Of a stretch of DNA of 64,000 bases, positions 22,802 to 50,635 are shown piece after piece (positions within the stretch are counted from its first letter, which is position 1; every line of letters begins with the position of its first letter). Made by a program: the position numbers and the translations under genes. Source of the DNA: a virus. Under the pieces are notes generated by a model. It had not been told where the DNA came from and searched no databases. It worked only from the letters and a program-made list of their open reading frames with translations. The stretch spans positions 14,803-78,802 of the IMG/VR virus record IMGVR_UViG_3300013137_000011. One strand, 5' to 3'.

Positions 22802-24148
22802 TTACGAGTGGGTTGCCCAACCAATACCAAGTGCCGTGGATCCGCTAACGATCAAGAACTGGCCCTCAGATCCAGGATCGAGGATACCAGGAACTCCAGA
22901 GGCAGAGAATCCAATAATACAGCCCTTTGCGGTTCCAATAGACTTTGCGATAAGAGTAGTAAGATCCTGATCTCCGGTGTTAACGCCAGAGGTAGAAACC
23001 AATCCATTGAGAGCAGTATCAATCTGTGCATGAGTGTTGGTGCCAATATCAGTAAGTGAGGTATGAGATTTGGTAGTGATATCTGCAATATCACTAGTTC
23101 CCTTGTCTACATCTGCCCAAATAGGGCGAGTCTTACCGAAAGTTCCAGCAACAGCATCATAGGAACTGAAGAACTGATTGCTAGTACTAGAAGTGCTTAT
23201 CGGAGTAACCTGATCTCCAGTATTAGTACCAGAAGTCGATACCAATCTCGTAAGAGCAGTATCAATCTGTGCGTGAGTATTAGTACCAATATCAGTAATT
23301 CCAGTATGCGAAGGTTGCGCTTTACCAAAAGTACCAGCAACAGCATCGTAGGAACTAAAAAATTGATTGGAAGTAGATGACGTACTTACAGGAGTTACCT
23401 GATCACCAGTATTGGTACCTGAAGTAGAAATTAATCTAGTCAAAGCAGTATCAATCTGTGCATGGGTATTAGTACCGATATCAGTTAATGCTGTGTGTGA
23501 TTTGGTAGTAATATCTGCGATACTACTAGTTGCCTTATCAACATTAGCCCAAGTTGGTCTAGCTTTGGTAAATGCACCAGTAACTGCATTATACTCAGTA
23601 AAGAACTGATTAGAAGTTGCAGAAGTACTTACAGGAACAACCTGATCTCCAGTATTAGTACCAGAAGTATTACTAACGACGGTTCTTTGTGCATCTGTAA
23701 TATATCTTCTATTAGTAGAATCAGGAATATCTGCAGTAGTGACATCCTCATCTAACTCATGAGTAATAAGAATGGTTCCAGAATCATTCTTAACTCCATC
23801 TAGATCCCAAGTATAATTAGGACGAAGAGTTACGTCATAAAGAACTCTCGTTCCACCAGCATCAACGATCTTAACATAGAATCTAACATTAGCAGTATCA
23901 CGATTTTCGATAAGAATGTTTTTAACTACAATCGTAATTTTTGCATTAGTAGGGGCAGGTACAATAGTAACAGGAGTAGCTCCTGCCAACTGATACGTTT
24001 TGCTCTTCTCCTCTCTAAGCGCAGTAGACTCAACCTTACCAGATTTTTCTTCATACACAACAGTACAATCTGGCTGAGTAGTAGCTGGAGCCCCAGACAT
24101 CACTACCTGGATATATTCAGTAGTCTTTTCAAGTGCAATTTCTCTCAT
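22802..24148 (-). CDS. tail-fibre-like protein with internal repeats
   Basis: TSG[TV]NTGDQ x4; TDIGTNTHAQIDTAL x3; Ser/Thr rich. Confidence 0.7.
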   Translation of the reverse strand: MREIALEKTTEYIQVVMSGAPATTQPDCTVVYEEKSGKVESTALREEKSKTYQLAGATPVTIVPAPTNAKITIVVKNILIENRDTANVRFYVKIVDAGGTRVLYDVTLRPNYTWDLDGVKNDSGTILITHELDEDVTTADIPDSTNRRYITDAQRTVVSNTSGTNTGDQVVPVSTSATSNQFFTEYNAVTGAFTKARPTWANVDKATSSIADITTKSHTALTDIGTNTHAQIDTALTRLISTSGTNTGDQVTPVSTSSTSNQFFSSYDAVAGTFGKAQPSHTGITDIGTNTHAQIDTALTRLVSTSGTNTGDQVTPISTSSTSNQFFSSYDAVAGTFGKTRPIWADVDKGTSDIADITTKSHTSLTDIGTNTHAQIDTALNGLVSTSGVNTGDQDLTTLIAKSIGTAKGCIIGFSASGVPGILDPGSEGQFLIVSGSTALGIGWATHS

Positions 24149-24160
24149 TTCAATCCTCCT

Positions 24161-24256
24161 TTATCGTACTTCGAGTTGTTTCATAAATGGCTTCGCCGGA
24201 CAATTAAGTTTAGTAGAAGCCTTTTTCTTTTTACTAGAAGATTTTTTTCCTGCCAT
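24161..24256 (-). CDS. 31-aa Lys/Ser-rich peptide (not in the ORF track)
   Basis: Perfect AAGGAGGTGA RBS; MAGKKSSSKKKKASTKLNCPAKPFMKQLEVR. Confidence 0.6.
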   Translation of the reverse strand: MAGKKSSSKKKKASTKLNCPAKPFMKQLEVR

Positions 24257-24314
24257 TCATCTCACCTCCTTTGCTATTTATTAACCCTGCCACTATATTA
24301 TTTACAACCTAAAA

Positions 24315-25103
24315 CTATCTTCTCTCATCTATTAAATCAGAACTAGGATCTGGTTTAACTGATTTTATAACATAACAAAATGCATACTTAGGACCAACTA
24401 ATCCTCCTAATGTCCTGAGAAGATTTATAACTTCCTCATCATTATCAGTAAGATGTCTAGCACCATCTAATCCAGGAACACCCCAATAAGGCATAAGATG
24501 AATTCCTTTAGCCGAATCTATATAAAAACCTGTATTAAATAACATCTCTTTAGTCTCATCATAGGTTAATTCTTTGGTATGATCTTGGCAACATTTAAAA
24601 TCTCTATATCCAAGAGCCCTATTCATAATAAGATGAAGACTATTTCTATTTGGAGAAGTCAAAAGAAATATCCCATTAGGTTTAAGAACTCTAAATGCTT
24701 CAGATATCATTTTTTCTGGATTCCCAACATGTTCTAATACTTCTTTAGCAACAACTATATCAAATGTATTATCTAGAAAAATTAGATTACAAGCATCCAT
24801 TTGCATAAACTCTGCTTCAGGATATTTTTTTTCAAACTTATTCCTAGCAATTGACATAGCAACTTCAGAAATATCAGTACAAACAATACTTTTACATCCT
24901 TTATATGAATGAAGAGATCCACATCCATCACCAGATCCAAGATCAAGTATGTGTTTTCCTTCAAATGGAACGCACATTTTTCTTGCTGTAGAATCAATAT
25001 CTATTCCACGAACTCTATCCCATAAAAATTCTTGATTGTATGGTTTACCATTAGAGTATAAATCATTCATCATATCCCTACTATTACGTTCCATTATAAC
25101 CAT
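24315..25103 (-). CDS. class I SAM-dependent methyltransferase (Methyltransf_11-like)
   Basis: ILDLGSGDG, FDIVV..EVLEHV, RVLKPNG. Confidence 0.9.
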   Translation of the reverse strand: MVIMERNSRDMMNDLYSNGKPYNQEFLWDRVRGIDIDSTARKMCVPFEGKHILDLGSGDGCGSLHSYKGCKSIVCTDISEVAMSIARNKFEKKYPEAEFMQMDACNLIFLDNTFDIVVAKEVLEHVGNPEKMISEAFRVLKPNGIFLLTSPNRNSLHLIMNRALGYRDFKCCQDHTKELTYDETKEMLFNTGFYIDSAKGIHLMPYWGVPGLDGARHLTDNDEEVINLLRTLGGLVGPKYAFCYVIKSVKPDPSSDLIDERR

Positions 25104-25795
25104 CCCTCCTCTGTAATAAGATAATTTTTCATAGCATCATTATTAAACGGAATAACAAATTTCTCTTGCCCTGGTGTACCTCCCCACTTTTTAATATAAT
25201 ATCTTTGAAATATATCTGCAAAGATATTCATATTAAGAGTATTTCTCATTGGATCGGATGCAATAGTTTGGCTTCCTTCATGGTGAATTGGAAGTTTTTC
25301 TGTATATATTGCATGATATCCAGCAAGTTTGGCTCTATATATCTGATCGTTATCAGAGAAGTAGTTTGGGAGGTTTGGATCTACAAGTCCAATCTTTTTT
25401 ATAGCACTAATACGCCATGCTATTACATACCATCTATCTGAATAGATCCACCAATTAGGATCCTCAAATGCTTTTTCTACACGTTCCATAAATTTCTTTA
25501 AAACATCGTCGCCAAGAAAGAATATATCAGAGTGTGTCCAAAACATAACATCATCTTCATTGTCAATACACTCTTTATAATACAGATTAAAGTTATCTGT
25601 AGATGATATATGCACTTTTGGTCTAATAATCTTTGGATTGAATCCAAATATTTTTTCTGGTTCTTTAAGATCAAAATTATCAGACACATCTGTTATAACC
25701 AGTTTGTCATAAACCTCATGAACATTATAACTCTTAACTGCTTTTATAAGTAAATCTAATCTACTTTTGTGCATTATTTTGAATGACCATTTCAT
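25094..25795 (-). CDS. glycosyltransferase, GT2-like (GT-A fold)
   Basis: HSD, IGLVDPNL..YFSDND...R...G, IHHEGSQT, YIKKWG. Confidence 0.8.
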   Translation of the reverse strand: MKWSFKIMHKSRLDLLIKAVKSYNVHEVYDKLVITDVSDNFDLKEPEKIFGFNPKIIRPKVHISSTDNFNLYYKECIDNEDDVMFWTHSDIFFLGDDVLKKFMERVEKAFEDPNWWIYSDRWYVIAWRISAIKKIGLVDPNLPNYFSDNDQIYRAKLAGYHAIYTEKLPIHHEGSQTIASDPMRNTLNMNIFADIFQRYYIKKWGGTPGQEKFVIPFNNDAMKNYLITEEGWL

Positions 25796-25801
25796 AATTA
25801 A

Positions 25802-26680
25802 TTACCTCCAAGACCTATTAGTAAACATTGATGGAAGATTTCCATAAAAAGTAGCAGTACCACTATCAACACTATGAACTGCATTTGTATAATGATATCC
25901 AATTGTAGGAAGCCAAAATAGTTGTGATGTTAGTGCTATAACATAACTATTTCCACAATCCTCCTGGGTTCCATCTGGCCCATCTGCCCTATCAACTCCG
26001 ATACTCCATCTAGTTGGACCAGGATTACCCCCTGTTGTTTGAACAAAAGCAGTACAATCATGTGTATTTTCAGTAATTCCTACTACAAACTCATGTTTCC
26101 AATTAGCATTACCACCATTTGCTGCTGCTGGAGTCGAAGAATTATATGTCCATGATGCAGTAGTATCTTGTTGAGATGATATAACTAATATTTTATTATA
26201 GTAATTATGCACAAATCTTTTCGCATTAGTGTTTTGAAATTTACTTGCAGCATCAACATGAACAGTACCAATATATCTTCTGGTTGTTGCTCCAGATTTA
26301 GATAGTACTCCATCCTGATAAACTAATGCTGTTGCTCTTGTAGCAGTACTAGCCCATGCAAGTTTTTCTAACGTAGGAGTTCCATTATCATCATAACAAA
26401 ATATATCATGAGGTGTATTAGCAGTAAATCCAGAATTAGATATTGACAGTTCGGTAAAATGCCTAAGATGCCAAAAAGTTCCATCATATAAAGATATAAA
26501 ATCTCCTATATATGGTGTAAAATATAGAGAAGTTTTGTCTGATTCATCGGCAGATGTAACAACAGGAGAACCACTAGTTAGTGTCAATCTTCCATTAACA
26601 GTACTATTAGTGACAATAGAAAGGACTTCTTCTTCAGTAGCCATCTCTGGATTAAGAGATTGTTTTCCAGGTTTTCCCAT
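25802..26680 (-). CDS. tail fibre / receptor-binding-like structural protein
   Basis: GRLTLTSGSPV...LYFTPYIG and RRYIGT motifs of phage tail proteins. Confidence 0.6.
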   Translation of the reverse strand: MGKPGKQSLNPEMATEEEVLSIVTNSTVNGRLTLTSGSPVVTSADESDKTSLYFTPYIGDFISLYDGTFWHLRHFTELSISNSGFTANTPHDIFCYDDNGTPTLEKLAWASTATRATALVYQDGVLSKSGATTRRYIGTVHVDAASKFQNTNAKRFVHNYYNKILVISSQQDTTASWTYNSSTPAAANGGNANWKHEFVVGITENTHDCTAFVQTTGGNPGPTRWSIGVDRADGPDGTQEDCGNSYVIALTSQLFWLPTIGYHYTNAVHSVDSGTATFYGNLPSMFTNRSWR

Positions 26681-28698
26681 TACTTTTTCCTCCTTATATC
26701 AATCCAAAGTTGATCTCCAGAGTGATGTTTGATTACTGGTTTACAATAAATAATTTCATATCCAAATACATTTGCAAGATGCTCTAAACTACTTTTGTTA
26801 TAAACAATGGTATGTTCACCAACAAAAGAAGCATTTAGGTATATCCAATTATTATTTCTTTCATTCCATTTATCTGTATCTGGAGTTATAATTGAAATTA
26901 CTCCATTTTCTGTTAACAACTCTTCAAGTTTCTCGAATAGTTTTATAGGATCATGTATATGTTCAATAACATGATTCATTAATATTAAATCATACTTATA
27001 TTTATTGTCAAAGTTTTCTACTGTTTTATCATATACATTTATTTCTAATTTATCATAAGTTAGTTTATAGTTGTCTCCGGTTTCTAATCCATCTGATATC
27101 CATCCTAACTTTTCCATTTTATCTACTATAGTTCCTGCTCCACAACCAACATCAAGAAACCTTCCTATATTTCCATAATGTTTATTAAATCTATTGTTTA
27201 ACTCAACAGCCAACTCAGATTCACGTTTTCTATAATCTTTTGTAAGATAACATCCAGTATACGATTTATCGTCATAGTATTTAGAACCATCTACAATAAT
27301 ATCTGTATATATTGCTTCACAGTTCTTACATCTCAAGAATTTAATGTAACTTCTCCTCATTACAAATTCACATTCAGTATCTCCACATACAGGACAATAC
27401 TCACGATATCCAGTATATGTTTCATCTTCTATATCTTTTAACTCAACAAATGGAGTTGAATCCATTGGAACTAAATCAATAGTTTTCTGTATTTCTTTCA
27501 TTATTTCATCAATTTTAAATTGTTTCATACAATGTGGATAATTTGGGATCCCTCCTGTATCTAAACATGAGTGTCCGTGCAACATGCATGGACCACATTT
27601 ATCAGTTTTTTGAATCCATCTTCCATATTTGTAATATCTCATTCTAAGATCACCATCAAAAGGACCATATAAACCTAAACAAGGTTTATCAAATGCTCCT
27701 GCAATATGAACACAACAACTATCTAGACCAACAACAAATTCACAATTCTTAATAAATAAAATAATTTCTCTAAGAATAAGTTGATCTGGAAATATGATCT
27801 TCTTATCAATATCATCAAACACCTTACTATCAAATCCAATCTTATTTCCACATTCCTCGCATCTTACTATGGTGTAGTGTATTCTTGGTCCTACATTTAA
27901 ATCAACAATCTTTCCACAAGAACTACACTTTTTTTCTTGATAATATTTATATATAGACTTATCTCCAATCATTATAACATAATATCCATACTTTTCAACA
28001 ATTTCTCTAGCCAATTGAATCATCTTCGGTATTTCAAGATTTCTTAACATAGATGACGTTTCATACTGAAGTACAACAAACTTTTCTTTATTCATATCTA
28101 TTTTATATATCTTTTTAAGATTCTTCTTAAATACTTTCATCTCTTTATCTGTAACATATAATGTTGGATTTTTCTCTTCGTCACTCATTTCATTAATTGG
28201 TGCGCCGACACAATCTAAGAATATATCATAAACATTATAAAGTTGTGCAAATGGATTTAATGTTATTTCTCCGTCAAAACAGAATACCATATCATATTCA
28301 TCGGTAGAAATGTTATGGTAAACTTGTTTTGTTTCTTCTATATTTAACAGAGTTAAATCTGTATTATTCATGAACACATCTGCTCCACGAGCAGAAGAAG
28401 ATACTGTAATCATGCAATTTGGATATTGTTTATGAAACCATTTGATCGCAGGCGTCATAAAAAGAACATCACCAACACCACCATGATGTATAAATAACGC
28501 AGTTTTTGGATCTTGATGTACCGATCTTTTAGTGCCAATTGGAGTTATATCTTTAAATCCAAGATGTCTAATAAAATAATTCTTCCAATATTGTTGTTCT
28601 ACAAATACAATACCATTAGAAAATCTATGTTCATATGCTTTTCCTGTTGCGTTTGAAGGAAATTTTTTACTTTTATTAGAATCAAGAATCCATGTCAT
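26680..28698 (-). CDS. GT9-like glycosyltransferase fused to zinc ribbons and a class I methyltransferase
   Basis: GGVGDVLFMTP; VGLDSCCVHIAGAFDKP..GLYGP; CSSC/CEEC insert; CPVC/CKNC; FLDVGCGAG; HVIEHIHDP. Confidence 0.88.
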   Translation of the reverse strand: MTWILDSNKSKKFPSNATGKAYEHRFSNGIVFVEQQYWKNYFIRHLGFKDITPIGTKRSVHQDPKTALFIHHGGVGDVLFMTPAIKWFHKQYPNCMITVSSSARGADVFMNNTDLTLLNIEETKQVYHNISTDEYDMVFCFDGEITLNPFAQLYNVYDIFLDCVGAPINEMSDEEKNPTLYVTDKEMKVFKKNLKKIYKIDMNKEKFVVLQYETSSMLRNLEIPKMIQLAREIVEKYGYYVIMIGDKSIYKYYQEKKCSSCGKIVDLNVGPRIHYTIVRCEECGNKIGFDSKVFDDIDKKIIFPDQLILREIILFIKNCEFVVGLDSCCVHIAGAFDKPCLGLYGPFDGDLRMRYYKYGRWIQKTDKCGPCMLHGHSCLDTGGIPNYPHCMKQFKIDEIMKEIQKTIDLVPMDSTPFVELKDIEDETYTGYREYCPVCGDTECEFVMRRSYIKFLRCKNCEAIYTDIIVDGSKYYDDKSYTGCYLTKDYRKRESELAVELNNRFNKHYGNIGRFLDVGCGAGTIVDKMEKLGWISDGLETGDNYKLTYDKLEINVYDKTVENFDNKYKYDLILMNHVIEHIHDPIKLFEKLEELLTENGVISIITPDTDKWNERNNNWIYLNASFVGEHTIVYNKSSLEHLANVFGYEIIYCKPVIKHHSGDQLWIDIRRKK

Positions 28699-28726
28699 TT
28701 TTATTATTCTCCTTTTATTTTATTAT

Positions 28727-28755
28727 GAGGGGATTTGAGGTTATCTCCTCCCCTC
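28727..28755 (-). promoter_or_regulatory. conserved-loop hairpin (GAGATAAccTCAAA)
   Basis: gagggga/tcccctc stem, 12 nt after the upstream stop. Confidence 0.6.
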
Positions 28756-28767
28756 CAACTTTCAAAA

Positions 28768-29193
28768 CTATTGGATAGTAAGAGTAAATACAGAACTAGT
28801 GCTAGGTGGGGCGGCCCCAAGAGTAAATACAACCGCATCGGTAGATGCAAAGTAAACCTGATTCATATCGGTTGCATCAGTAGCATCAGTAACATTATCG
28901 TTACAAAAAATACCATCAACCATAGGATGAACGCCAAACGCAGTAGGAGTCAGCGTTCCAGTTGCAGTAAATACCTTATTAGTTCCATTACATAATCCAC
29001 CTGCCATACCCATCACGGATGGCTTACCAGATACTCCCGCTGCAAGATGCGAAGCCTGAATAACTCCTGCGCTGATATGACTACCAACAACGGCGTCAGC
29101 AGAGATATGGCTACCAACTACGGCGTTATCGGCAATCAGAGTACCACCAACAGAACCCGCAAGACCTCTTGCTCCTAAATCAATTCTTCCCAT
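28768..29193 (-). CDS. small fibre or decoration protein
   Basis: AVVGSHIS repeats; AGGAGG RBS; codon usage like the capsid gene. Confidence 0.6.
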   Translation of the reverse strand: MGRIDLGARGLAGSVGGTLIADNAVVGSHISADAVVGSHISAGVIQASHLAAGVSGKPSVMGMAGGLCNGTNKVFTATGTLTPTAFGVHPMVDGIFCNDNVTDATDATDMNQVYFASTDAVVFTLGAAPPSTSSVFTLTIQ

Positions 29194-29214
29194 TTTGGTT
29201 TCCTCCTTTCTTAG

Positions 29215-30348
29215 TTATTTCCACCATCTTAATACTATCTTATCTCCTTCAGAGATAGAACCTAGACCGCCTATATCAAATGTAATCGATCTATCATTTG
29301 TTTCGGTATATTCATCACCAAGCCAACAAAATGAACTTTGCCATTCAACTTGCATTGAATCATCCCCAACAGTATATACGCTACTAGTGCTTACTATTCC
29401 AGATGCTGCCTGTGCAGCAGATATGATTACTCTATCACAATAATGTTGATGAGTAGCACTTGTCGATACTGTTATTATCTTTCCAGATTGTGATATATTA
29501 GATGATCCTGCACCAATAATGGTAATATTTCCATTTATATAATCATAACCATCTGCTTTTATTCCAGTTACATCAGCAGAAGTTGAAAAATATACTGCAT
29601 CTCCTACATGAGTTATTCCTACAGAACCAAGTCCGATAAATGTAAGATCACCAGTTATTTCATCTCCATCTACATTAATTGACTGGACACCTGCAGATGT
29701 TGAAACTTCGTTTATTTGAGTGTATAACCAATCAAGAGTGTCCTCTAATGTTGAGGTTCCTGAAGTTGATACAATATTAGGATCGTAATAATCTAATTTT
29801 CCAGTAGTTATTCCTGCGTCTGTTGCTACATGACGATTTCTAATTGTTAATCCAGAAATTGAGTCGATTGTGAGAAGGGGACCGTCTTGGGCCGTCCCTG
29901 TGTGTTTATGTCCACTAGAGGCGTCAAAGGAGCCATATATGGAGGAGAGATATGCCTTTACCGTGGCGAATGTATACTGAGGATCCGTTCCAAGGGTTGA
30001 CTGAATTTGTGAAATCGCATCCTGAAGTTGGTTAATGTCATCAGCAACAATGTAATCGCCATCACAAAGAATAGTTATTCCTACAGTAGAATTAGCACTA
30101 GATGAATTAAACACTATTTCATTGTTTTCATAATCTATATAAAACCTATCAGATAACGTAGGAGGATTACTTGACGTTGAAATATAACCTGGTATTGTAA
30201 CAACTGAAGATGTAGAAACACTATGATGTAAATGTACTATAAAATCTGTTGCTGGAATAACATAAGAATCGGTAACGGCTGTTCCACCATCAATCTTATT
30301 CACTCTATTATAGAATATATCTAATGTACCTGGAAATAATGATAACAT
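29215..30348 (-). CDS. tail fibre / tail-tip structural protein, rich in STS motifs
   Basis: ADDINQLQDAI, GHKHTG...DGP and GVQSIN...TGD fibre motifs. Confidence 0.7.
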   Translation of the reverse strand: MLSLFPGTLDIFYNRVNKIDGGTAVTDSYVIPATDFIVHLHHSVSTSSVVTIPGYISTSSNPPTLSDRFYIDYENNEIVFNSSSANSTVGITILCDGDYIVADDINQLQDAISQIQSTLGTDPQYTFATVKAYLSSIYGSFDASSGHKHTGTAQDGPLLTIDSISGLTIRNRHVATDAGITTGKLDYYDPNIVSTSGTSTLEDTLDWLYTQINEVSTSAGVQSINVDGDEITGDLTFIGLGSVGITHVGDAVYFSTSADVTGIKADGYDYINGNITIIGAGSSNISQSGKIITVSTSATHQHYCDRVIISAAQAASGIVSTSSVYTVGDDSMQVEWQSSFCWLGDEYTETNDRSITFDIGGLGSISEGDKIVLRWWK

Positions 30349-30362
30349 TTGTTCACCTTCTT

Positions 30363-30863
30363 TTACTTATATTCACAGCCATCACCATATTTTTGAGTAT
30401 CATACTTATATCCCAAAAATGTATTAGATGCTCTACTAAAATATCCAGTTCTTTCTGCAAGATTTTCTAATCTTAAATAACACCAAAAATCTCCAGTAGT
30501 ACTAGCACTAATAGGAATATCTATATCTATTGATGAATCTATAAATCCACCTTCTGAAAGTGAACCTATATTTAAAATAGATCCAGAAATCATTTGTTGG
30601 CTTCCGCCTCCAAAATCACATGAAATCCAACCTTCATCTACACATTCTTGTCCATATATATTTGAAGATCCACTTATAGTTTTTTCTCCAGTATATATAT
30701 TAGCAGAAGATGAAATTACTGTAAAATAACTATCAACCTCTCCTAACATATATGACATACTAAAACTTACTGAAGAAGAATCACTAGTAAATAGATCCTG
30801 AAATTCTATTTCACTAAGGAAACTTTTATGATCGGTTTTAGTTAATTGTACTCCAGATTTCAT
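30363..30863 (-). CDS. tail structural protein
   Basis: Position; Ser-rich beta-type sequence. Confidence 0.5.
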   Translation of the reverse strand: MKSGVQLTKTDHKSFLSEIEFQDLFTSDSSSVSFSMSYMLGEVDSYFTVISSSANIYTGEKTISGSSNIYGQECVDEGWISCDFGGGSQQMISGSILNIGSLSEGGFIDSSIDIDIPISASTTGDFWCYLRLENLAERTGYFSRASNTFLGYKYDTQKYGDGCEYK

Positions 30864-30865
30864 CG

Positions 30866-32758
30866 TTATACTTCCTGATGATAATACGCATCTCTAGTAT
30901 ACGTTGAATCCCATATTGCCTTGTTAAACCCTATACACTTCAAAGTCACCCCACGTTTATCTCCAAGAGAACTATACTGTAGGGCTCCTATAAATGATCC
31001 GGTAGAAATATTGTATTGATTTATATAACTTATTTCAGATGTATAGTCATAGTCAAATAGATTTAATTTAGAATCTGTTATTATTGGAGTTTTGCATGAA
31101 GTTGAAATTGTAGATGAATTCCAATTATTTGTACCTATTAAATCAATAGAATACCAATCTGTTAATTTATCTGGATCGTTGTTTACTGTTGTTTGAGTTA
31201 TTGATGTCCTTGATTCTTCTGGATATATTATATCATCCTCACTATGTTCAAGACCACGAAATATTACTTGATCGTCTATTCCAGAATGATATTTATCAGT
31301 TAAATCATATATTCTATGATACTTTCTCTCAGTATAATTAGTAATTTCACTAGAAGCATCCCAAGTAACGCTTATATCATAATTTTTTTCTACATAGTAT
31401 GACGTTAATGTTTTTCTATTTGTTATATTTCCAGTTGATAATTCTATTGAAACAATTCTTGATTCAGATGAACTAACATAGGCCCAACTTTCAGTTCCAT
31501 CTACTTCAGAATATGGAAATGATGCTCCCTGATAAAATTTTACAGGAATAACAGCAAGATCAAATACTATATATCTTTCTTCACATATCAATACATCATC
31601 TATTATACATATTGGTTTGTATAGTTTTATATCTTTAATATATTTTATACTATACGATTCTTTGCTCATTATGGTTCCAGGAGGATCTGTGACAATAACA
31701 TATTTTTGAGCATCTATTGAGCATGAATTTATAGTTATATCATTCAATGTCCATATATTAGTTAAGTTTGATCCACTATAACAATTTATATTTGAACCAA
31801 ATTCTAAATAATTATCAAATGTAATTATATAATTATTGTTTCCAATAAAACTAATATTCCTAGAAACTTCTAATGGATTTGTACTAAAATCATAACCAGA
31901 ATATTCATCTCCAAGTATACTATTTATAACAATTTCTCCGCTTACTGTATTATATTTAGATTTAGTATTACACAAAAGACCATACGAATATTCTAACAAA
32001 CTTGGATGAATTGGATAAGGTTTTGCCGGATAGAATGTTCCAATATCTGGACCCGATCCATATTCAGTAAAACCATATATAAACGGACCATCTCCAATAT
32101 TATAAAAAGTTTCTGGATCAAAATCTATATATAAAGATAAATCTGAAGTATATGATCTTATTTTAACTCCAGTAACCTGATGATTCGCACTATACCACCA
32201 TTCATTTCCTGCATTATAACTTATAATTATCATAAAATAAGTATTATTTACAAAAGCATTTCTACTTTGAAAAGTAATATTATCGTTATCAATAACATCT
32301 TCAATAATAGACAAATCTGTTTTGTCTATACATAATATATGATCATCGTTATTTGAATCTTTATAGTGAATATATATGTATGTAGAATTAACTCCAATAA
32401 TTTCTCCAGAAGAACAATCTATTGATAATATAGATTCTAGCATTTTTATTATTGTTTCGATATCTTTAGATATACTATATTTATATAATGTTTTAGATGA
32501 ATAGTTAAATCCAAACGCATTTGTATTATCTATTACATCTATTACTTGTCCTTCATCTAATTGTTTTAAGTCTCCAGAGGTGCTAATTCCATCTTCATTA
32601 TCTACTGATTTTGTGAAACTTGAATTACTTTCAAATGTTCTAAATAATTTAGAAATCCACTTCATAATAGTAGTTCTAATTAATGGAATAACATTAGGAG
32701 TTTTGATTAACTCTATTATATTCTTATCTCTAAACATCATTGGAATATAATTTGTCAT
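30866..32758 (-). CDS. tail-tip protein, possibly a beta-propeller
   Basis: Position; repeated beta/W patterns. Confidence 0.5.
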   Translation of the reverse strand: MTNYIPMMFRDKNIIELIKTPNVIPLIRTTIMKWISKLFRTFESNSSFTKSVDNEDGISTSGDLKQLDEGQVIDVIDNTNAFGFNYSSKTLYKYSISKDIETIIKMLESILSIDCSSGEIIGVNSTYIYIHYKDSNNDDHILCIDKTDLSIIEDVIDNDNITFQSRNAFVNNTYFMIIISYNAGNEWWYSANHQVTGVKIRSYTSDLSLYIDFDPETFYNIGDGPFIYGFTEYGSGPDIGTFYPAKPYPIHPSLLEYSYGLLCNTKSKYNTVSGEIVINSILGDEYSGYDFSTNPLEVSRNISFIGNNNYIITFDNYLEFGSNINCYSGSNLTNIWTLNDITINSCSIDAQKYVIVTDPPGTIMSKESYSIKYIKDIKLYKPICIIDDVLICEERYIVFDLAVIPVKFYQGASFPYSEVDGTESWAYVSSSESRIVSIELSTGNITNRKTLTSYYVEKNYDISVTWDASSEITNYTERKYHRIYDLTDKYHSGIDDQVIFRGLEHSEDDIIYPEESRTSITQTTVNNDPDKLTDWYSIDLIGTNNWNSSTISTSCKTPIITDSKLNLFDYDYTSEISYINQYNISTGSFIGALQYSSLGDKRGVTLKCIGFNKAIWDSTYTRDAYYHQEV

Positions 32759-42400: not shown

Positions 42401-43792
42401 ATATTCTTGTGTTCTAGGTGCTTGACGTTCATTTAATAGTTCAACATCTTTATCAAACATATGTCTTCTATTAGGAGCAAACCTAATTCTTCTTATAGTA
42501 GCATTTCTGGTATTTCTATCAACTACTCTACTACTATAATTATTTAATAAATCATTTTTTAAACTACTTAATTCTTCTTTCGATAGTTTCCTATTAGGAT
42601 CTCCAACAACACTACCAACTATATTTTCTGGACCTCCTGCAGTTCCAGCATATCTTCTATTTTGAATAATTGCTTGTTTTGTTAATGCAATCTGTTCTTT
42701 AATTGATTTATCCTCAAACTGCATCATTTGATACATTTCTTGTGATTCATTATGCATTTTCAACAAATAGTTTAGTTTTTGTTGTCTAAATTCATTCATT
42801 AATTCTTTCATTAATGATGAAACACTAGAACCTTTTATTGATCCTTGTGTTATACCAAACTCTTTTTGTAGTTGTGCTATGTCGTTCTTTGAAAATATTG
42901 CATCTGATATTTGAGTTGGTTGATTTCTAAGATCCTGAAATATTTTTCTAGACAAATCTATTACGCCAGTTTTTTCATCAAAACCACGACCAACATAATT
43001 TCCAATTAAACTAATAATTGATCCTGGAAGTTTAGTTTCTCTTCCGCTAGGACCACTAGAAGATAATTTTCCTCCACCTGCCATAAGATGTGGAGTATTA
43101 ATAATTCCTTGTATTGTTTGATTTGCTTGATTCACCCTATCAACACTAGCAACAAGAGACTTCTCCAAGTCACTTAAACCCTTTACTCCTTTCTGTCCCT
43201 TCATGCTACTAATTAATTCTCTTAACGCACCCAACTCCCCAATTTCACCCATAGAACCTTGATTAAATAAAGGTTTAATACTTAATGACTGTAAATGATC
43301 ATTTATTTTCTTTACAGTATCAACTCTAGTTACATTGTTGTTTTTAATTATTTCTTCCATTGTTTGTTTAACAGATGCATTATATGCTCTTACATCTTGT
43401 GAAACAACATTCTGGAAATTCTGATTATTAGTACCAGACAAAGCACCAGCAAGACGTTGAATTTCTTCTCGTTGCGCTTTCATTCTGTGCAACATATTAG
43501 ATGATTGCACAGTTATATTTCTCATCCTATCAACAAGTTGCTCTTCTGATTTTATGGCTGCTCTCTGTATTTCATTATATGCTTTATAAGAACCACCAAG
43601 TTTATTTAGTATTTCTGCTTGTTTTAAGAATGAGTTATTATAAGAATCAATTGCTTTCTGTCCCTGATAAATAGAGGGAGCCCATTTAGCCATGGCTCCC
43701 TGCACATCGTTAACCAATTTACCAATAACTTGAAATTTATCAAGTCCAGAAGTTTCGCAAGCAATTCTAATGATGTTATTTATTTCTGACAT
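36452..43792 (-). CDS. tape measure protein (TP901-type core)
   Basis: 2446 aa, helical; LAEAMKYAG...LADAGIRGTDMGERLR. Confidence 0.92.
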   Translation of the reverse strand: MSEINNIIRIACETSGLDKFQVIGKLVNDVQGAMAKWAPSIYQGQKAIDSYNNSFLKQAEILNKLGGSYKAYNEIQRAAIKSEEQLVDRMRNITVQSSNMLHRMKAQREEIQRLAGALSGTNNQNFQNVVSQDVRAYNASVKQTMEEIIKNNNVTRVDTVKKINDHLQSLSIKPLFNQGSMGEIGELGALRELISSMKGQKGVKGLSDLEKSLVASVDRVNQANQTIQGIINTPHLMAGGGKLSSSGPSGRETKLPGSIISLIGNYVGRGFDEKTGVIDLSRKIFQDLRNQPTQISDAIFSKNDIAQLQKEFGITQGSIKGSSVSSLMKELMNEFRQQKLNYLLKMHNESQEMYQMMQFEDKSIKEQIALTKQAIIQNRRYAGTAGGPENIVGSVVGDPNRKLSKEELSSLKNDLLNNYSSRVVDRNTRNATIRRIRFAPNRRHMFDKDVELLNERQAPRTQEYLNKVFGARSESLSRQFPFYLNTTQDNNYIPVSRIRQEVHKIAQELGIRLKDPDIYDPKENKGNNWTTKKYTGYTLYNFTNEQYENDLNNIRSTIGLENEQIRKRKESYDQLRKEQILRGEISKEDMTRQEKIGLRREQSKEWSNEMGWMVKRHLEWVATGAVLYGVADAFKRAFEAESQFEKGLTRVASITAHGRDQMQLLKKGILDMDKSVFSSAQTAETMYHIVSTGLGQSKDGYLDVAASIKNAENANKLATLGMYDSSEAAVHLAVIMKQFNMGADESQRVLDGLSYAAAKSATEIPKLAEAMKYAGVVANESGLGFEDTLGMMMKLADAGIRGTDMGERLRGVIKRLADPSKEAQKAFKDMGIEMMNEDGSAVSLYDKLNRLKEGLSKLPTGKQEKYLGDIFEQRTSAAGRILMRYTKADFDEAINKQKAMNDGQRQFEVMTNNIIDQWKILSNEMGKFGIEIAEPLVKDIGKIAKAGIDLFTGLKQAAQGSPGIGGVVTGGVESIVAMGGSAALWSMGGWAKNKILGQDETIYNFLKRPGYGYSGGFNPGNSNIYPSTLLPGAGSRMFGVGALAGIGAAAYTGDAGAGAKIGIASGLLTVLNPAVGISVGIIASAALKWYKDNQDKLEEDLKQKIAQSNVSKRAFETSIGYIGGGEFYRDLYKSTGDQNAGKSISTIPNITRKYIERMIAPVENTTSVFDPDINKLKNILILYEKYKMSISNYQEENVAEKELRQLINLKKVISIGLTDRIESQRSRFKFEIEKLNNYDTNPLEYDDSVKKGWGHILTSLGFYGDLGMAPKTDPQKSFDESKNVREELKDKWKHKLQFLTPERMNTLMSKTDEIFKDVASVSGPEREKKLQEWSKLLKTLFGEPFATEMEPLSNEIIGLAKKSIDQAEDAVEKYKKLVSGQESYLNLFGDDLETNKKILMKHRKLTASLLLAEKQGIPSLDIGVMSVAGLYDIIDTRTGYSKKYNKLSGKLSNVPDWKDLNTSSWFTSNIQSGSGFNLEYSSQNNKYRRQFDNIRKRRFEVDEFNKSSNEQIDKVSKQLYRDLKNYGAYDSVKIFSGPKVIEELTRKYEKDATSITKEETQILSLSQKKKQLEKQRIDINKKFSIERIESLHNMALEMNNDIENSRNTLDSDISQLFPSYENKKKSIKDSTKKQLDWFNILNKDINDSLNIAKDAKLKEKDPEKIKVLDAAIKTFQKELKLIPGLIKDLNLTETAKLFMIETSRMLELKQYRSIISSIGLRLSGRGPEADHISSLGSLQNTYETSRRQAYNEKDTNKLKMLAVEYYYNLRELNHTFSKQKIDEENNLKELKARNIIEEYRLRGQYADAEYKSKTIQNQKSFDDEMFTAKDNLIKQNEIRKFYARAFGQDYKVYISNLQSETNTLNASAVATRLRLIGKTLRADIIETVMQIRADKDRILSSLDPESDAYKKNKKIYEGKEELAVKDHKERIYAIQYAIETATKQLNAKLSGRYLYGEHYKNIREIISSGYQQVQNAGGPDTPMGKEAAANVKNELELEARRFKEEYSKVYNDMYMSIMQNRFALTKQEISAEYNLQYHSLKNEYNDRMRLHYGDIELRLLIEKDFSTKVYMLWKSIYARIYDTRFKSMQEGMGIFVSTSQSYAQRTGQDQRGSLVGSRFGLYTSKYKAMNDPSIDPWMRPFYYAQIKEEEDRIAIQERQMGVGGERETRLRNNLKILESKKLKTSRDFEQIKLYRSELGKIQSGGSGQVLSGDEQKRVKGWIDYLPYMKNQIAEKQDKIDERHKFLFNWQRSMVERGVGANSPEGQAYAKQIQIYNRMKSDRDRVNGPDSDMTRGIAELKKLALRADSKTQDIIAKLIAELSMKTEKIQSVSIDAITGSAKADLEEMMKKYDIGKFNVDEYFKKYLQDWAKDNGIRLKGDENKQEEVKPQEHPLKNSGPDIYHIDASIYLDGEKIAEQIAKAEINKINKYCQDQDKRKNAVSGGAK

Positions 43793-45624: not shown

Positions 45625-45638
45625 TTATTTCCCTCCTT

Positions 45639-46343
45639 TCATTCGATATCATCAGGCAGTTTAACTTTTATAACCGCCGAACCTTCCATCCCATTTGCGA
45701 ACCTTCCTGAATCTTCAATTCTATCTATTTTGACTCTACCAACTGTGATTATTCCGCTCGTAGAAATGGCAGGAGAGACTGAATAATCCTTTAGTTTGAT
45801 GTTAGAAGAAAGTGCTGATTTCAATTCTTCCTTGATTCCATCTCTTTGTGAGACATCGAAACTTCCATTCTTCCTAACATCTGCATAAAAACCAATCGAT
45901 AGAATCTTTGTATCCTCTACAGTACTTTTTCCCTGATCATACTCCTGATCTATTTCAGAATCTATTTCAAACCACACCGCAGGCGTGGAAACTTGCTCTT
46001 TGTCTATTTGATTAAATGTTTCTTGCCACGATAACATCAATACTGGTTTATATTGATATTCAATTTCTACATTTTGACTAGAATTTGATGCATTAAATTG
46101 TAAGTTTGTGCTATTACCTTTTCCACCATAATTTATTACTGTATATTGATTGACCTGTGGATTTGAACTTACTCTTGTAAATCCATCTATATTATCACTT
46201 CCAGAAATTACTCTATTCTTTAATAATGTTTTGGAAGTACTTATGCTAAATGGATTTTCAGAATAATTTCTAGTAGATAAGTATAAATCAATGTGATCAT
46301 AAATGGATCTTATTATATTATCTGCGTGTTGTTGTCTATTCAT
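45639..46343 (-). CDS. tail terminator / completion protein with an inserted beta domain
   Basis: Position; PAVWFE. Confidence 0.55.
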   Translation of the reverse strand: MNRQQHADNIIRSIYDHIDLYLSTRNYSENPFSISTSKTLLKNRVISGSDNIDGFTRVSSNPQVNQYTVINYGGKGNSTNLQFNASNSSQNVEIEYQYKPVLMLSWQETFNQIDKEQVSTPAVWFEIDSEIDQEYDQGKSTVEDTKILSIGFYADVRKNGSFDVSQRDGIKEELKSALSSNIKLKDYSVSPAISTSGIITVGRVKIDRIEDSGRFANGMEGSAVIKVKLPDDIE

Positions 46344-47510: not shown

Positions 47511-47511
47511 A

Positions 47512-47967: not shown

Positions 47968-47974
47968 TTTATCC

Positions 47975-48990: not shown

Positions 48991-49021
48991 TGCGGGATTT
49001 TTGTGTTGGAGAAACCCCGCA
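48991..49021 (-). promoter_or_regulatory. hairpin after the major capsid gene
   Basis: tgcggggttt/aaatcccgca stem; no U-tract on the sense strand. Confidence 0.55.
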
Positions 49022-49033
49022 AAACCATAAGAC

Positions 49034-50071
49034 TTAACCTGATGCGTTGATCTTGTATCTGAAGAGAGTCTTGTCGGCAGCAACGATGCCAAGACTAACC
49101 TTCATCACAAAATGCCATCCACGCAGAAGTTCTCTCATATCCTCCCAATCATAAACACTAATTCCGCCCTTCTGAGCGAACTTAATGCCTCCAATTTGGA
49201 AGTTAGTTCCAACCAGGAACATATTATAAGGAGCCGTAATGGGAAGAAGAACCGTGCCCTTATCGTTCTTGAGAGCAACTCCATCCTCGTCCTGGGGTTG
49301 AATCAGTTCAACGAACGGAATTGCACGATACGATTCAAGCATACCCTGCGTTTCATAAATCTTGGTAAGAGTGTCGATAGAATATCCATAATCGAATCCG
49401 GTAACTGGAGTGAAACTGGACTGAGGACCAAGGATACCTGCAGGACGCTTGCCAATGATCGGCCACAGATAGTCAATACCAGAATCAAAACTGGTCTTCG
49501 AAATCTCCGAAGTAGTTTCGTTGGTATTAGCCGAACCATCAGTAACAGAAGTAACGCACAGATTATAAAGATATCCAAGAAGTTGAGACATGAGGGCCTG
49601 CGTAGACCATGCGGCAACCATATCAGGCGACGGACCCTTGCCATTTTCGAGATCCTTAATCCTAAGAGTCGGGAAACAATGAATCTCGAAGTCAGGGAAC
49701 TCAGTCCGAGTCATAGTAATCTTGGTTTCGGTAGGCGAAACGCCGTCCGCAAGAATCCAAGCCCTAAGACCAGGAGTAGTATCCCACTTGACCTGCTCAT
49801 CCCATCCAAGACCTTCCTGGACATCAGCAATCTGGGGAATAGGATTAACGTAAGGGAGGTGCGTTTCGACCATCTTTACGATATCCGATCCCATCGCAAG
49901 CCACTCACCATGCCTATCATTTCTGGCGGCAAAGGCGATTTTCTTGAGTTGTTCCTGTTTCTCATCGTCAGTAAAATTTCTCTGCTCAGAGATATTCTTG
50001 GCGAGAGCAAGAACCCTTTTATCAGTAATAGTATCGAACTTAGTTGCTCTGGTAGGTTTAAGTTTGAACAT
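49034..50071 (-). CDS. major capsid protein (HK97 fold, inferred)
   Basis: 345 aa after scaffold and decoration genes; AAAGGAGGTG RBS; strongest codon bias in the window. Confidence 0.8.
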   Translation of the reverse strand: MFKLKPTRATKFDTITDKRVLALAKNISEQRNFTDDEKQEQLKKIAFAARNDRHGEWLAMGSDIVKMVETHLPYVNPIPQIADVQEGLGWDEQVKWDTTPGLRAWILADGVSPTETKITMTRTEFPDFEIHCFPTLRIKDLENGKGPSPDMVAAWSTQALMSQLLGYLYNLCVTSVTDGSANTNETTSEISKTSFDSGIDYLWPIIGKRPAGILGPQSSFTPVTGFDYGYSIDTLTKIYETQGMLESYRAIPFVELIQPQDEDGVALKNDKGTVLLPITAPYNMFLVGTNFQIGGIKFAQKGGISVYDWEDMRELLRGWHFVMKVSLGIVAADKTLFRYKINASG

Positions 50072-50086
50072 TACACACCTCCTTTC

Positions 50087-50635
50087 TTAGGATTGTGTGG
50101 ATCGTTTATCAACGATCCAGGTTAGTTTGTTGTTATCATTAGCGGGAACAACCTTGACATATCCAGGAGAGAAATCTCCAGCGGTAGGAGAATCATCCTG
50201 TTCAAGTTTGCCTGCATTAACGAAAAGTCTTCCTCCTGCAGTAAAGGAAGAAGTCGATACATAACCATCGGTATCAACGGTATACTCTGCTCCATCAAGG
50301 AGTTCATGTCCGATATGCATACCGAGCATCTCGTTGGTAGTATCAAAATCAAATCCAGTATGCGGAGGAACAGCAAGACCAGTAAGACCAAACGGGGCTC
50401 CGAAATAAGTCTCGGGAATCATCCCACCATATCTCCGGTGATGCGGAATCTCAAGAATCCTAAGTCCAGTATTTGTTCTGGCACTAGCCTTCTGATAATA
50501 AACTTCTCCACTAACAACTACGGGCTCAAGAATCATACCGTCTTTTACCGTTAGAGGTACAGAAGCCGAAGATCCTGCAACATAAATCTTGCAATTTCTT
50601 GCCGAACCCATAATACGATGTCTGATTTTAAGCAT
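50087..50635 (-). CDS. capsid decoration / cement protein
   Basis: Between scaffold and capsid; YTVDTD...FTAGGRLFV..GKL beta-tulip-like pattern. Confidence 0.65.
   Translation of the reverse strand: MLKIRHRIMGSARNCKIYVAGSSASVPLTVKDGMILEPVVVSGEVYYQKASARTNTGLRILEIPHHRRYGGMIPETYFGAPFGLTGLAVPPHTGFDFDTTNEMLGMHIGHELLDGAEYTVDTDGYVSTSSFTAGGRLFVNAGKLEQDDSPTAGDFSPGYVKVVPANDNNKLTWIVDKRSTQS

What the first reader, a model, noticed from the sequence alone, without database searches (positions are those of the whole stretch)
22802..50635. Recurring [V/I]-S-T-S-[A/G/S] motif in unrelated virion proteins: candidate phage O-glycosylation sequon
Seen (manual count): STS occurs 8 times in 22802-24148, 7 in 29215-30348, 2 in 30866-32758, 2 in 45639-46343, and once each in 28768-29193, 50087-50635 and the tape measure. 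It is nearly always preceded by V, I or F and usually followed by A, G or S. Variants ISSSA, ISGS and ISAS occur in 30363-30863 and the major tail protein. I found only one STS in the + strand early genes (19625). The 7 copies in 29215-30348 sit in non-repetitive contexts and mix TCN and AGY serine codons (e.g. gtt tct aca tct, gta tcg aca agt, gta agc act agt), so the motif is kept at the peptide level and is not a DNA repeat. It concentrates in predicted surface proteins (fibres, decoration, tail tip) and is nearly absent from the 2446-aa tape measure. Inference: it is the acceptor sequon for the glycosyltransferases in the same operon, giving a programmed glycan coat on the virion.
Basis: partly seen in the sequence, partly recalled or inferred. 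Interest (0 to 1): 0.85.

Follow-up and report, generated by a model that had tools for sequence, protein, structure and literature searches.

The report
Lineage-specific [V/I]-S-T-S motif on phage fibres
An uncultured 79-kb phage carries the short peptide Val/Ile-Ser-Thr-Ser about twenty times more often than chance in its tail-fibre and other late proteins, mostly in the two fibre genes that flank its sugar-transferase genes. This fits a sugar-attachment signal, but nothing here shows that any sugar is attached.

Summary
In the late proteins STS occurs 23 times against 5.6 expected, [VI]STS 18 against 0.8, and [VIF]STS[SGA] 16 against 0.24 (0 of 1000 shuffles). TST, STT, TTS and TTT are at or below expectation. 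The serine codons mix TCN and AGY. The 23 copies fall into 18 unrelated contexts; one 189-bp tandem repeat accounts for the rest.

The motif is specific to this lineage. 119 homologues of the 448-aa fibre and 42 distant homologues of the 377-aa fibre show no excess. Where conserved fibre modules elsewhere read [IL][GAS]NTS-GTNTGDQ, this phage reads L[VI]STS-G[TV]NTGDQ. Only the two closest relatives of the 377-aa protein share the excess.

Fifteen of the 23 copies lie in the two fibre genes that flank a four-gene cassette: a GT9-fold transferase fused to a sugar-type methyltransferase, a small putative transferase, a methyltransferase and an unknown protein. A GT4 and a pyruvyl transferase lie elsewhere.

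The sequon reading is the best explanation (about 0.45) but is unproven. No enzyme is tied to the motif, relatives' gene content could not be fetched, and the nearest other phage GT9 genes sit in replication modules. This scan has reported similar candidate virion sequons ([S/T]-G and others) in other phages.

The parts
22802..24148 (-). 448-aa tail-fibre protein. It has 8 STS: three L[VI]STSG[TV]NTGDQ, three P[VI]STS[AS]TSNQFF and two overlapping STSNQ.
   Evidence: It has 703 homologues that share the NTSGTNTGDQ fibre module. There is no Pfam hit.
23133..23485 (.). 189-bp (63-aa) tandem repeat, 1.9 copies, 82% identical. It duplicates part of the STS-bearing modules.
24315..25103 (-). 262-aa class I SAM-dependent methyltransferase.
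   Evidence: Pfam Methyltransf_11, E 2e-22. PHROG 22502.
25094..25795 (-). 233-aa putative small glycosyltransferase, weakly supported.
   Evidence: PHROG 29879 'galactosyl transferase', E 5.5e-9. No Pfam or NCBIfam hit.
25802..26680 (-). 292-aa protein of unknown function, rich in Thr (13%) and Ser (9.6%), inside the cassette. It has no STS.
26680..28698 (-). 672-aa fusion. Residues about 60-410 form a GT9-fold glycosyltransferase and about 430-672 a sugar-type SAM methyltransferase. It has three 4-Cys clusters (aa 258-283, 368-390, 435-460).
   Evidence: Pfam Glyco_transf_9 at 30.9 bits (cut-off 22) and Methyltransf_23 at E 4e-20. The profile hits WaaF at 1e-20. Foldseek gives WaaF, 3tov, WaaC and TibC for the transferase part, and MtmC, KijD1 and TcaB9 for the methyltransferase part.
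28768..29193 (-). 141-aa tail-fibre-like protein with 1 STS (PPSTSSV).
   Evidence: PHROG 892 'tail fiber protein', E 1.7e-4..
29215..30348 (-). 377-aa fibre-like protein with 7 [VIF]STS[SGA] in seven unrelated contexts. It has an N-terminal beta-sandwich, a helical neck, about 40-aa beta repeats that end in ...[VF]STSA, and a C-terminal domain.
   Evidence: VIA gives Z up to 7.6 to beta-sandwich domains of phage neck, tail and baseplate proteins. TRF finds no tandem DNA repeat.
30363..30863 (-). 166-aa protein with four variant motifs: VISSSA, TISGSS, MISGSI and PISAST.
30866..32758 (-). 630-aa distal tail protein with 2 ISTS.
36452..43792 (-). 2446-aa tape measure protein with 1 VSTS, which is at expectation (0.6).
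45639..46343 (-). 234-aa late protein with 2 ISTS and 1 ISGS.
50087..50635 (-). 182-aa protein just upstream of the capsid gene, with 1 VSTSS. Its role (decoration or scaffold) is unknown.
   Evidence: No family hit.
49034..50071 (-). Major capsid protein (345 aa). It has no STS.
   Evidence: PHROG 2522 'major head protein', E 2e-5..
53454..54722 (-). 422-aa GT4 glycosyltransferase in the head module.
   Evidence: Pfam Glycos_transf_1 at 32.2 bits (cut-off 26.4). PHROG 2170, E 4e-28. A homologue lies between the capsid and neck genes of Pontimonas phage phiPsal1; another lies upstream of the terminase genes of Tetrasphaera phage TJE1.
20959..21996 (+). 345-aa polysaccharide pyruvyl transferase (CsaB-like). 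It is the last gene of the + arm and converges on the fibre gene.
   Evidence: Pfam PS_pyruv_trans, E 2e-29, 103.7 bits. TIGR03609 CsaB, E 1.6e-22, below its cut-off.

Best explanation
[V/I]-S-T-S-[S/G/A] is a recognition signal that selection has placed repeatedly on the tail-fibre and distal-tail proteins of this phage lineage. The most likely reading is an acceptor site for O-glycosylation in the host cytoplasm by the phage's own enzymes.

Shown: the excess of the motif, its order-specificity, its codon-independent conservation, its restriction to this lineage, and its position next to the transferase cassette.

Inferred:
1. A phage transferase puts a sugar on one or both serines. The best-placed candidate is the GT9-fold/methyltransferase fusion at 26680-28698, which lies between the two most motif-rich fibre genes. 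The GT4 at 53454-54722 is the alternative. The serines would lie at the exposed end of a beta-strand, with the V/I as the last buried residue and the small +1 residue opening a turn.
2. The other enzymes (small putative transferase, methyltransferases, pyruvyl transferase) extend and cap the glycan with methyl and pyruvate groups.
3. The fibres are then assembled already glycosylated. This could alter adsorption, stability, or recognition by host or environmental factors.
For: 1. Enrichment: [VI]STS 18 against 0.82 and [VIF]STS[SGA] 16 against 0.24, with 0 of 1000 shuffles reaching these. Permuted triplets are not enriched. Position -1 is V/I in 18 of 23 and +1 is S/G/A in 17 of 23.
2. The signal is at the peptide level, with TCN and AGY codons mixed, and lies in 18 unrelated sequence contexts.
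3. It is not a property of the folds.
   - 119 homologues of the 448-aa fibre (61,196 aa) have STS 64 against 77.7 expected and [VI]STS 5 against 10.2.
   - The three residues before G.N[TS]GD are NTS in 116 of 173 modules and never STS.
   - The module after GTNTGDQ reads VP.N..GAANNFL in many of the homologues sampled; STS lies within 16 aa in only 1 of 139.
   - 42 distant homologues of the 377-aa protein carry 4 STS in all. The two closest carry 4 (59% identity) and 6 (37%), including new copies at non-homologous sites.
4. Background: ORFs of 80 unrelated metagenome loci give 3 [VI]STS against roughly 12 expected. Early proteins of this genome have 1 STS against 2.2.
5. Genomic link: 15 of the 23 copies lie in the two genes that flank the cassette 24315-28698.
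6. Enzymes:
   - The transferase half has a GT9 fold.
   - The methyltransferase half resembles NDP-sugar C-methyltransferases, so it is glycan-building.
   - There is also a GT4 and a pyruvyl transferase.
   - No membrane or lipid-carrier component was found among the genes scanned.
7. Precedent:
   - The GT9-fold enzyme TibC O-heptosylates serines of a folded beta-helix in the cytoplasm, at sites such as VIQNS-GG and ITNTS-AA (PMC4358343).
   - Mycobacteriophages glycosylate capsid and tail-tube proteins with their own transferases (Freeman et al. 2023, as cited in PMC12363180).
   - A GT4-methyltransferase-GT2 set lies between the capsid and neck genes of phage phiPsal1.
Against: - There is no chemistry, and no transferase is tied to a protein substrate.
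- The GT9 domain is nearer to LPS heptosyltransferases than to TibC by sequence (WaaF 1e-20 against TibC E 2.6). It does not hit the BAHT model TIGR04414 even at E <= 10.
- After the single orthologue, its nearest phage relatives (25-28% identity) lie between the DnaB helicase and the primase in replication modules (L006, L008). That hints at another substrate, such as DNA.
- No nucleotide-sugar synthesis genes were found.
- The capsid, the probable portal and most tail proteins lack the motif.
- Exposure of the sites could not be measured. Only 2 of the 23 copies lie in a confidently modelled region.
- The key comparison, relatives with and without the transferases, could not be made.
- Many cytoplasmic O-glycosyltransferases read structure rather than a strict linear sequon.
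Confidence: 0.45

Rival explanations
1. The motif is a structural or assembly element of this lineage and carries no modification. [VI]STS[SGA] would be a favoured way to end a beta-strand and start a turn in this clade's trimeric fibres, or a contact site for a fibre chaperone or neighbouring subunit. It would have spread by module shuffling and convergent substitution. The transferases would serve another purpose.
For: - Three copies in the 377-aa protein close about 40-aa beta repeats. In distant relatives the equivalent repeats end in ...ITISS.
- In the model the motif follows a strand or ends a helix.
- Modules are exchanged between the two fibre proteins: the C-terminus of P0002 resembles the repeats of the 448-aa protein.
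- Earlier follow-ups of this scan on [S/T]-G excesses in other phages rated a structural reading as nearly as likely.
Against: - Homologous modules in over 100 other fibres fold without STS.
- The motif occurs in at least four different secondary-structure settings and in unrelated proteins.
- The strict S-T-S order, with TST and STT depleted, is hard to explain by strand capping alone.
Confidence: 0.3
2. The motif is a recognition site for a different enzyme or partner, not for the phage transferases. Candidates are a host O-glycosyltransferase, a kinase, or another modification of Ser or Thr. The phage transferases would instead modify DNA or host envelope polymers.
For: - The nearest MTase-less relatives of the GT9-like gene sit in replication modules of other phage contigs.
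- The CsaB-like pyruvyl transferase belongs to a family that acts on cell-wall polymers.
- The phage invests heavily in DNA modification, with three DNA methylases.
Against: - No base hydroxymethylase or other DNA hypermodification gene was found; ThyX is the only thymidylate-type enzyme.
- The cassette lies among the fibre genes on the late strand.
- No kinase or other Ser/Thr-modifying enzyme was detected.
- The host is unknown, so a host enzyme can be neither supported nor excluded.
Confidence: 0.15
3. The excess has no function. A few chance substitutions would have been multiplied by duplication and by post-hoc choice of the pattern.
For: - A 189-bp tandem repeat multiplies copies in 22802-24148.
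- The pattern was defined after looking at the data.
- STS alone, outside the two fibre proteins, is only marginal (8 against 4.2).
Against: - There are 18 independent contexts.
- STS is the top tripeptide in an unbiased scan of all tripeptides.
- [VI]STS is 6 against 0.57 even without the two fibre proteins.
- P0002 has independently gained further copies.
Confidence: 0.07

Closest known systems
TibC/Aah autotransporter heptosyltransferases (BAHT) acting on TibA and AIDA-I of E. coli (PMC4358343)
   Same: - A GT9-type GT-B enzyme O-glycosylates many serines of a folded, beta-rich surface fibre in the cytoplasm.
- Mapped sites have the pattern hydrophobic residue, polar residues, Ser, then a small residue (VIQNS-GG, ITNTS-AA). 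This has the same flavour as [VI]-S-T-S-[SGA].
- The enzyme and substrate genes are adjacent.
- A 4-Cys cluster lies in the C-lobe at about the same place as the TibC iron finger.
   Different: - There is no sequence membership: TIGR04414 is not hit, and TibC scores E 2.6 against WaaF at 1e-20.
- No N-terminal beta-barrel was modelled.
- The phage enzyme is fused to a sugar methyltransferase and carries two further Cys clusters.
- The substrates are phage fibres, not autotransporter beta-helices.
- The motif is a stricter linear peptide.
- The donor sugar is unknown.
Mycobacteriophage virion O-glycosylation (Che8, Corndog, Myrna; Freeman et al. 2023, Cell Host Microbe 31:1216, as cited in PMC12363180; the paper itself was not held)
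   Same: Phage-encoded glycosyltransferases modify the phage's own virion proteins. Glycosyltransferase and methyltransferase genes occur in or next to structural modules (compare phiPsal1).
   Different: - There the targets are capsid and tail-tube subunits. Here the capsid has no motif and the fibres carry it.
- The text read here reports no short linear sequon for those phages.
- The host and phage lineage are unrelated: this genome has about 31% G+C and no close relative in any collection searched.
- Homology between the transferases was not tested.
Serine-rich O-glycosylation motifs of Gram-positive surface proteins (GtfA/GtfB on serine-rich repeat adhesins; the SASSAS motif of Lactobacillus buchneri S-layer protein). 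From my own knowledge, not checked here.
   Same: Cytoplasmic GT4-type enzymes glycosylate Ser in short Ser-rich motifs of surface fibres. The phage encodes a GT4.
   Different: Those motifs are long low-complexity repeats. Here single pentapeptides are scattered in folded domains. No GtfB-like partner was found.
Candidate virion sequons reported earlier in this scan ([S/T]-G, S-G-S and G-x-T excesses in large aquatic phages)
   Same: A short Ser/Thr motif is over-represented on outer tail proteins of phages that carry glycosyltransferases. All of these are unproven.
   Different: - This motif is longer and more specific, with five positions.
- It is absent from homologous modules of other phages.
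- It lies in a small (79 kb), low-G+C phage with no relatives, rather than across a clade.

Membership tests
Linear O-glycosylation sequon (operational definition) | The motif occurs more often than amino-acid composition predicts and is order-specific. | tested here: met
   [VI]STS is 18 against 0.82. TST, STT, TTS and TTT are not enriched.
Linear O-glycosylation sequon (operational definition) | The motif is present in lineages that have the enzyme and absent from homologous proteins of lineages that lack it. | tested here: inconclusive
   It is absent from 119 plus 42 homologues of other phages and present in the two closest.
Linear O-glycosylation sequon (operational definition) | The acceptor residues are exposed at the surface. 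| tested here: inconclusive
   The AF2 model of the 377-aa protein is confident only for residues 10-110. There the two motifs lie at a strand end or loop. No coordinates were returned, so accessibility could not be computed.
Linear O-glycosylation sequon (operational definition) | The residue is shown to carry a glycan. | not testable with these tools
   This needs mass spectrometry.
BAHT (TibC/Aah) protein O-heptosyltransferases | Sequence membership (NCBIfam TIGR04414), or closer to TibC than to LPS heptosyltransferases. | tested here: not met
   TIGR04414 is not listed at E <= 10. The profile gives WaaF 1e-20 and TibC E 2.6. Foldseek ranks WaaF and 3tov ahead of TibC, which is rank 10.
BAHT (TibC/Aah) protein O-heptosyltransferases | A four-cysteine iron finger inserted in the C-lobe. 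| tested here: inconclusive
   The cluster C368, C371, C378, C390 is at the equivalent place and is shared with phage relatives P0048-51. It was modelled at pLDDT below 50, and the metal is unknown.
BAHT (TibC/Aah) protein O-heptosyltransferases | [quoted passage not shown] | tested here: inconclusive
   Residues 1-61 were modelled as low-confidence helices. The oligomeric state cannot be tested.
Glycosyltransferase family 9 (Pfam PF01075) | A Pfam hit above the gathering score, and a GT-B fold. | tested here: met
   30.9 bits against a cut-off of 22. Foldseek to 1psw, 3tov and 2h1h, E 4e-11 to 1e-8.
Glycosyltransferase family 4 (Pfam PF00534) | A Pfam hit above the gathering score. | tested here: met
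   32.2 bits against 26.4 for 53454-54722.
Polysaccharide pyruvyl transferase (Pfam PF04230) | A Pfam hit above the gathering score. | tested here: met
   103.7 bits against 25.3 for 20959-21996. The CsaB equivalog cut-off is not reached: 80 bits against 213.
Mycobacteriophage-type virion glycosylation | Phage-encoded transferases lie in or beside the structural genes. | tested here: met
Mycobacteriophage-type virion glycosylation | Homology to the transferases Che8 gp110 or Corndog gp38, and glycans on capsid or tail-tube subunits. | not tested
   No comparison with those proteins was made. The capsid protein here has no motif.

The most novel reading that the evidence does not exclude
A phage lineage has evolved a defined five-residue O-glycosylation sequon, [V/I]-S-T-S-[S/G/A]. 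A phage-encoded GT9-fold transferase fused to a sugar methyltransferase reads it. The phage has written the sequon convergently into at least a dozen unrelated sites on its fibre and distal-tail proteins, so that the fibres carry a methylated, possibly pyruvylated glycan. This would be the first linear sequon known for virion glycosylation in a bacteriophage, and a new protein-directed branch of GT9.
Probability: 0.3. Interest if true: 0.85.

Novelty: new variant of a known kind. Interest (0 to 1): 0.62.

Why it matters
Glycosylation of phage particles by the phage's own enzymes is known from very few cases, and the sources read here name no short acceptor motif for it. A short sequon would make phage glycoproteins predictable from sequence. 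It would also give a compact tag-and-enzyme pair for cytoplasmic glycoengineering.

It would help explain why glycosyltransferase genes sit inside so many phage structural operons. Here the motif has replaced conserved residues in widely shared fibre modules. That gives a clean natural experiment: the same module with and without the motif.

If the structural reading is right instead, the result still shows a rare case of a lineage-wide peptide signature written convergently into unrelated virion proteins.

Tried and rejected
- **DNA-level repeat.** Rejected. The codons differ, and there is only one tandem repeat in 22700-32800.
- **Ser/Thr richness.** Rejected. Within-protein shuffles and the permuted triplets argue against it.
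- **Generic feature of the fibre folds.** Rejected by 161 homologues.
- **Search for relatives with genomic context.** tblastn of the capsid protein, both fibres and the GT9 fusion against 50,697 phage records gave nothing or only short module hits. Three IMG/VR scans, two metagenome scans and two GTDB scans found no close relative.
- **Motif excess next to distant GT9 relatives.** No locus stood out: three [VI]STS in all across 80 loci. Those loci hold mostly replication genes.
- **Solved homologues of the two fibre proteins.** None.
- **Fold of the 377-aa protein.** Foldseek gave nothing below E 0.09. VIA gave only common beta-sandwich matches, Z up to 7.6.
- **Depletion of STS in early proteins, as a sign of avoidance.** Not significant: 1 against 2.2.
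- **The Freeman 2023 paper.** Not held.
- **Host.** Not identified.

Full report
**Setting.** The window is bases 14803-78802 of a single 78.8-kb virus contig with about 31% G+C. Early genes are on the + strand. They include an AEP primase, a Rad52-like protein, RuvC, a sliding clamp, ThyX and DNA methylases. Upstream of the window lie an SNF2 helicase, AAA and VWA proteins and RuvB. Late genes are on the - strand from 59740 down to 22802. The phage has no close relative in any collection searched.

- Shuffling each late protein separately gives STS 23 against 5.5 expected (z 7.3; 5.7 in a second run). STS is the most enriched of all tripeptides in an unbiased scan.
- The real unit is longer. 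V or I precedes STS in 18 of 23 cases (p 5e-12), and S, G or A follows in 17 of 23 (p 3e-8).
- [VI]STS occurs 18 times against 0.82 expected and [VIF]STS[SGA] 16 times against 0.24. No shuffle of 1000 reached these values.
- The order matters. TST, STT, TTS and TTT are at or below expectation, so Ser/Thr richness does not explain the signal.
- The serine codons mix TCN and AGY.
- One 189-bp tandem repeat in the 448-aa fibre gene multiplies some copies. Even so, the 23 sites fall into 18 unrelated flanking contexts.
- Without the two fibre proteins, STS alone is only marginal (8 against 4.2). [VI]STS remains 6 against 0.57 and [VI]S[ST]S 11 against 1.33.
- Early proteins of the whole genome have one STS against 2.2 expected.
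The tape measure is at expectation, not depleted. The capsid protein, the probable portal and most tail proteins have no copy.

**The motif is specific to this lineage, not to the folds.** This is the main new result.
- The 448-aa fibre shares modules with at least 703 database proteins. In the 119 best of them (61,196 aa), STS occurs 64 times against 77.7 expected and [VI]STS 5 times against 10.2.
- Their conserved module reads [IL][GAS]NTS-GTNTGDQ. The three residues before the glycine are NTS in 116 of 173 cases and never STS.
- The window protein keeps one ancestral-type copy (SNTSGTNTGDQ) and has three copies of L[VI]STSG[TV]NTGDQ. Their serines use TCN codons, so each is more than one base change away from Asn.
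- The next module, which in many of the relatives sampled reads VP.N..GAANNFL, reads V.P[VI]STS[AS]TSNQFF here. Only 1 of 139 homologous modules has STS within 16 residues.
- The 377-aa protein has 44 detectable homologues among 1.8 billion representatives. The 42 distant ones carry four STS in all.
- The two closest homologues carry 4 copies (P0001, 59% identity) and 6 copies (P0002, 37%). P0002 has three new LISTSN copies at non-homologous positions.
- ORFs from 80 unrelated metagenome loci give 3 [VI]STS against roughly 12 expected.
- The motif has therefore been written repeatedly into unrelated sites in one small clade.

**The surroundings.** Fifteen of the 23 copies lie in the two genes that flank a four-gene cassette at 24315-28698. 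The cassette contains:
- a class I methyltransferase;
- a 233-aa protein with a weak 'galactosyl transferase' PHROG hit;
- a 292-aa Thr/Ser-rich protein of unknown function;
- a 672-aa fusion protein.

The N-terminal 410 residues of the fusion are a GT9-fold transferase. This rests on a Pfam hit above its cut-off, a profile hit to WaaF at 1e-20, and Foldseek matches to WaaF, 3tov, WaaC and TibC. The C-terminal part resembles the NDP-sugar C-methyltransferases MtmC, KijD1 and TcaB9. The fusion is therefore a glycan-building enzyme. It has three 4-Cys clusters. The one at residues 368-390 is shared with MTase-less phage GT9 relatives. It lies where TibC carries its iron finger (Cys 339, 342, 358 and 370; PMC4358343). 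It was modelled with low confidence.

A GT4 lies in the head module. One homologue lies between the capsid and neck genes of an actinophage, next to a methyltransferase and a GT2; another lies upstream of the terminase genes of Tetrasphaera phage TJE1. A CsaB-like pyruvyl transferase ends the early arm. No nucleotide-sugar synthesis genes, flippase or lipid-carrier transferase were seen among the genes scanned.

**Structure.** An AlphaFold model of the 377-aa protein is confident only for residues 10-110, a small beta-sandwich. VIA gives Z up to 7.6 to beta-sandwich domains of phage neck, tail and baseplate proteins, which is a common arrangement. In this domain one motif follows a beta-bridge and the other ends a strand. 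Further on, one copy (aa 194-196) lies in coil just before helix 201-218, one (216-218) ends that helix, and one ends a strand of a beta repeat. The tool returned no coordinates, so exposure could not be measured.

**Best explanation (about 0.45).** The motif is an acceptor signal for cytoplasmic O-glycosylation of fibre proteins by the phage's own enzymes.

Evidence in favour:
- The motif has hydroxyl residues with a small +1 residue.
- The enrichment is convergent and confined to one lineage.
- It is restricted to late proteins.
- The two richest genes flank the cassette.
- The fusion enzyme is of a sugar-building type.
- There are two precedents. TibC is a GT9-fold enzyme that heptosylates serines of a folded beta-rich fibre at sites such as VIQNS-GG and ITNTS-AA. 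Mycobacteriophages glycosylate their own virions.

Evidence against:
- There is no chemistry.
- The GT9 domain is not a BAHT member. TIGR04414 is not hit at E <= 10, and TibC scores E 2.6 against WaaF at 1e-20.
- Its only clear orthologue (P0047, 47% identity, also fused) lies on a 7-kb contig that I could not read.
- Its next relatives lie between the DnaB helicase and the primase in other phage contigs, which hints at a non-protein substrate in those phages.
- The comparison of relatives with and without the transferases could not be made.

**Rivals.**
- A structural or assembly motif of this clade, without modification (0.3).
- A site read by some other enzyme or partner, with the transferases acting on DNA or the host envelope (0.15).
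- No function (0.07).

**Comparison and novelty.** In mechanism the nearest known system is TibC/Aah with TibA and AIDA-I, but a defining membership feature was tested and not met. In biology the nearest is mycobacteriophage virion glycosylation; there the capsid and tail tube are the targets, and the text read here reports no linear sequon. This scan has already reported similar unproven [S/T]-G, S-G-S and G-x-T excesses in other phages. The present motif is longer and stricter. It stands out because homologous modules elsewhere lack it. I rate it a new variant of a known kind, with interest 0.62. The decisive step is mass spectrometry of the 377-aa protein co-expressed with the cassette.

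Noticed in passing
window 26680-28698 (-), residues 258-283, 368-390 and 435-460: The GT9/methyltransferase fusion has three 4-Cys clusters. The middle one is shared with MTase-less phage GT9 relatives and lies where TibC has its iron finger. The last one probably belongs to a TcaB9-type zinc domain of the methyltransferase. The first is found only in this protein and its one orthologue, P0047.
   Followed up: partly
L006 9797-11542 and L008 9800-11515: The nearest MTase-less relatives of the GT9-like gene (25-28% identity) lie in phage replication modules in the order DnaB helicase, 152-aa protein, GT9, Toprim primase, ribonucleotide reductase. L006 also has a thymidylate-synthase-like gene nearby. 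This may be a DNA- or replication-linked use of a viral GT9 family. The ESM Atlas lists viral GT9 clusters of 59-210 members.
   Followed up: partly
window 22802-24148 (-) and proteins P0055-P0173: A widespread fibre module, ...[IL][GAS]NTSGTNTGDQ followed by VP.N..GAANNFL, together with SHT..TDIGTNTHAQID-type His motifs, occurs in at least 703 database proteins. It has no Pfam family or solved structure.
   Followed up: partly
window 20959-21996 (+): A phage-encoded CsaB-like polysaccharide pyruvyl transferase ends the early arm and converges on the fibre gene. Pyruvylation is unusual for a phage gene set.
   Followed up: no
window 6120-6950 (+), 17911-18501 (+), 57846-58493 (-): Three DNA methyltransferases (N6_N4_Mtase, MT-A70, PHROG 757), together with ThyX (14025-14642) and an HU-like protein (55673-56059).
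   Followed up: no
window 30363-30863 (-): This 166-aa, 17.5% Ser protein has four [VI]S[SGA]S variants but no STS. It may be a relaxed form of the same signal or only a Ser-rich fibre part.
   Followed up: no
window 323-1483 (+): The Rad52-like protein has a sub-threshold Pfam hit to the TET-associated glycosyltransferase family (E 4e-4, 20.9 bits against a cut-off of 27.5). This is probably noise.
   Followed up: no
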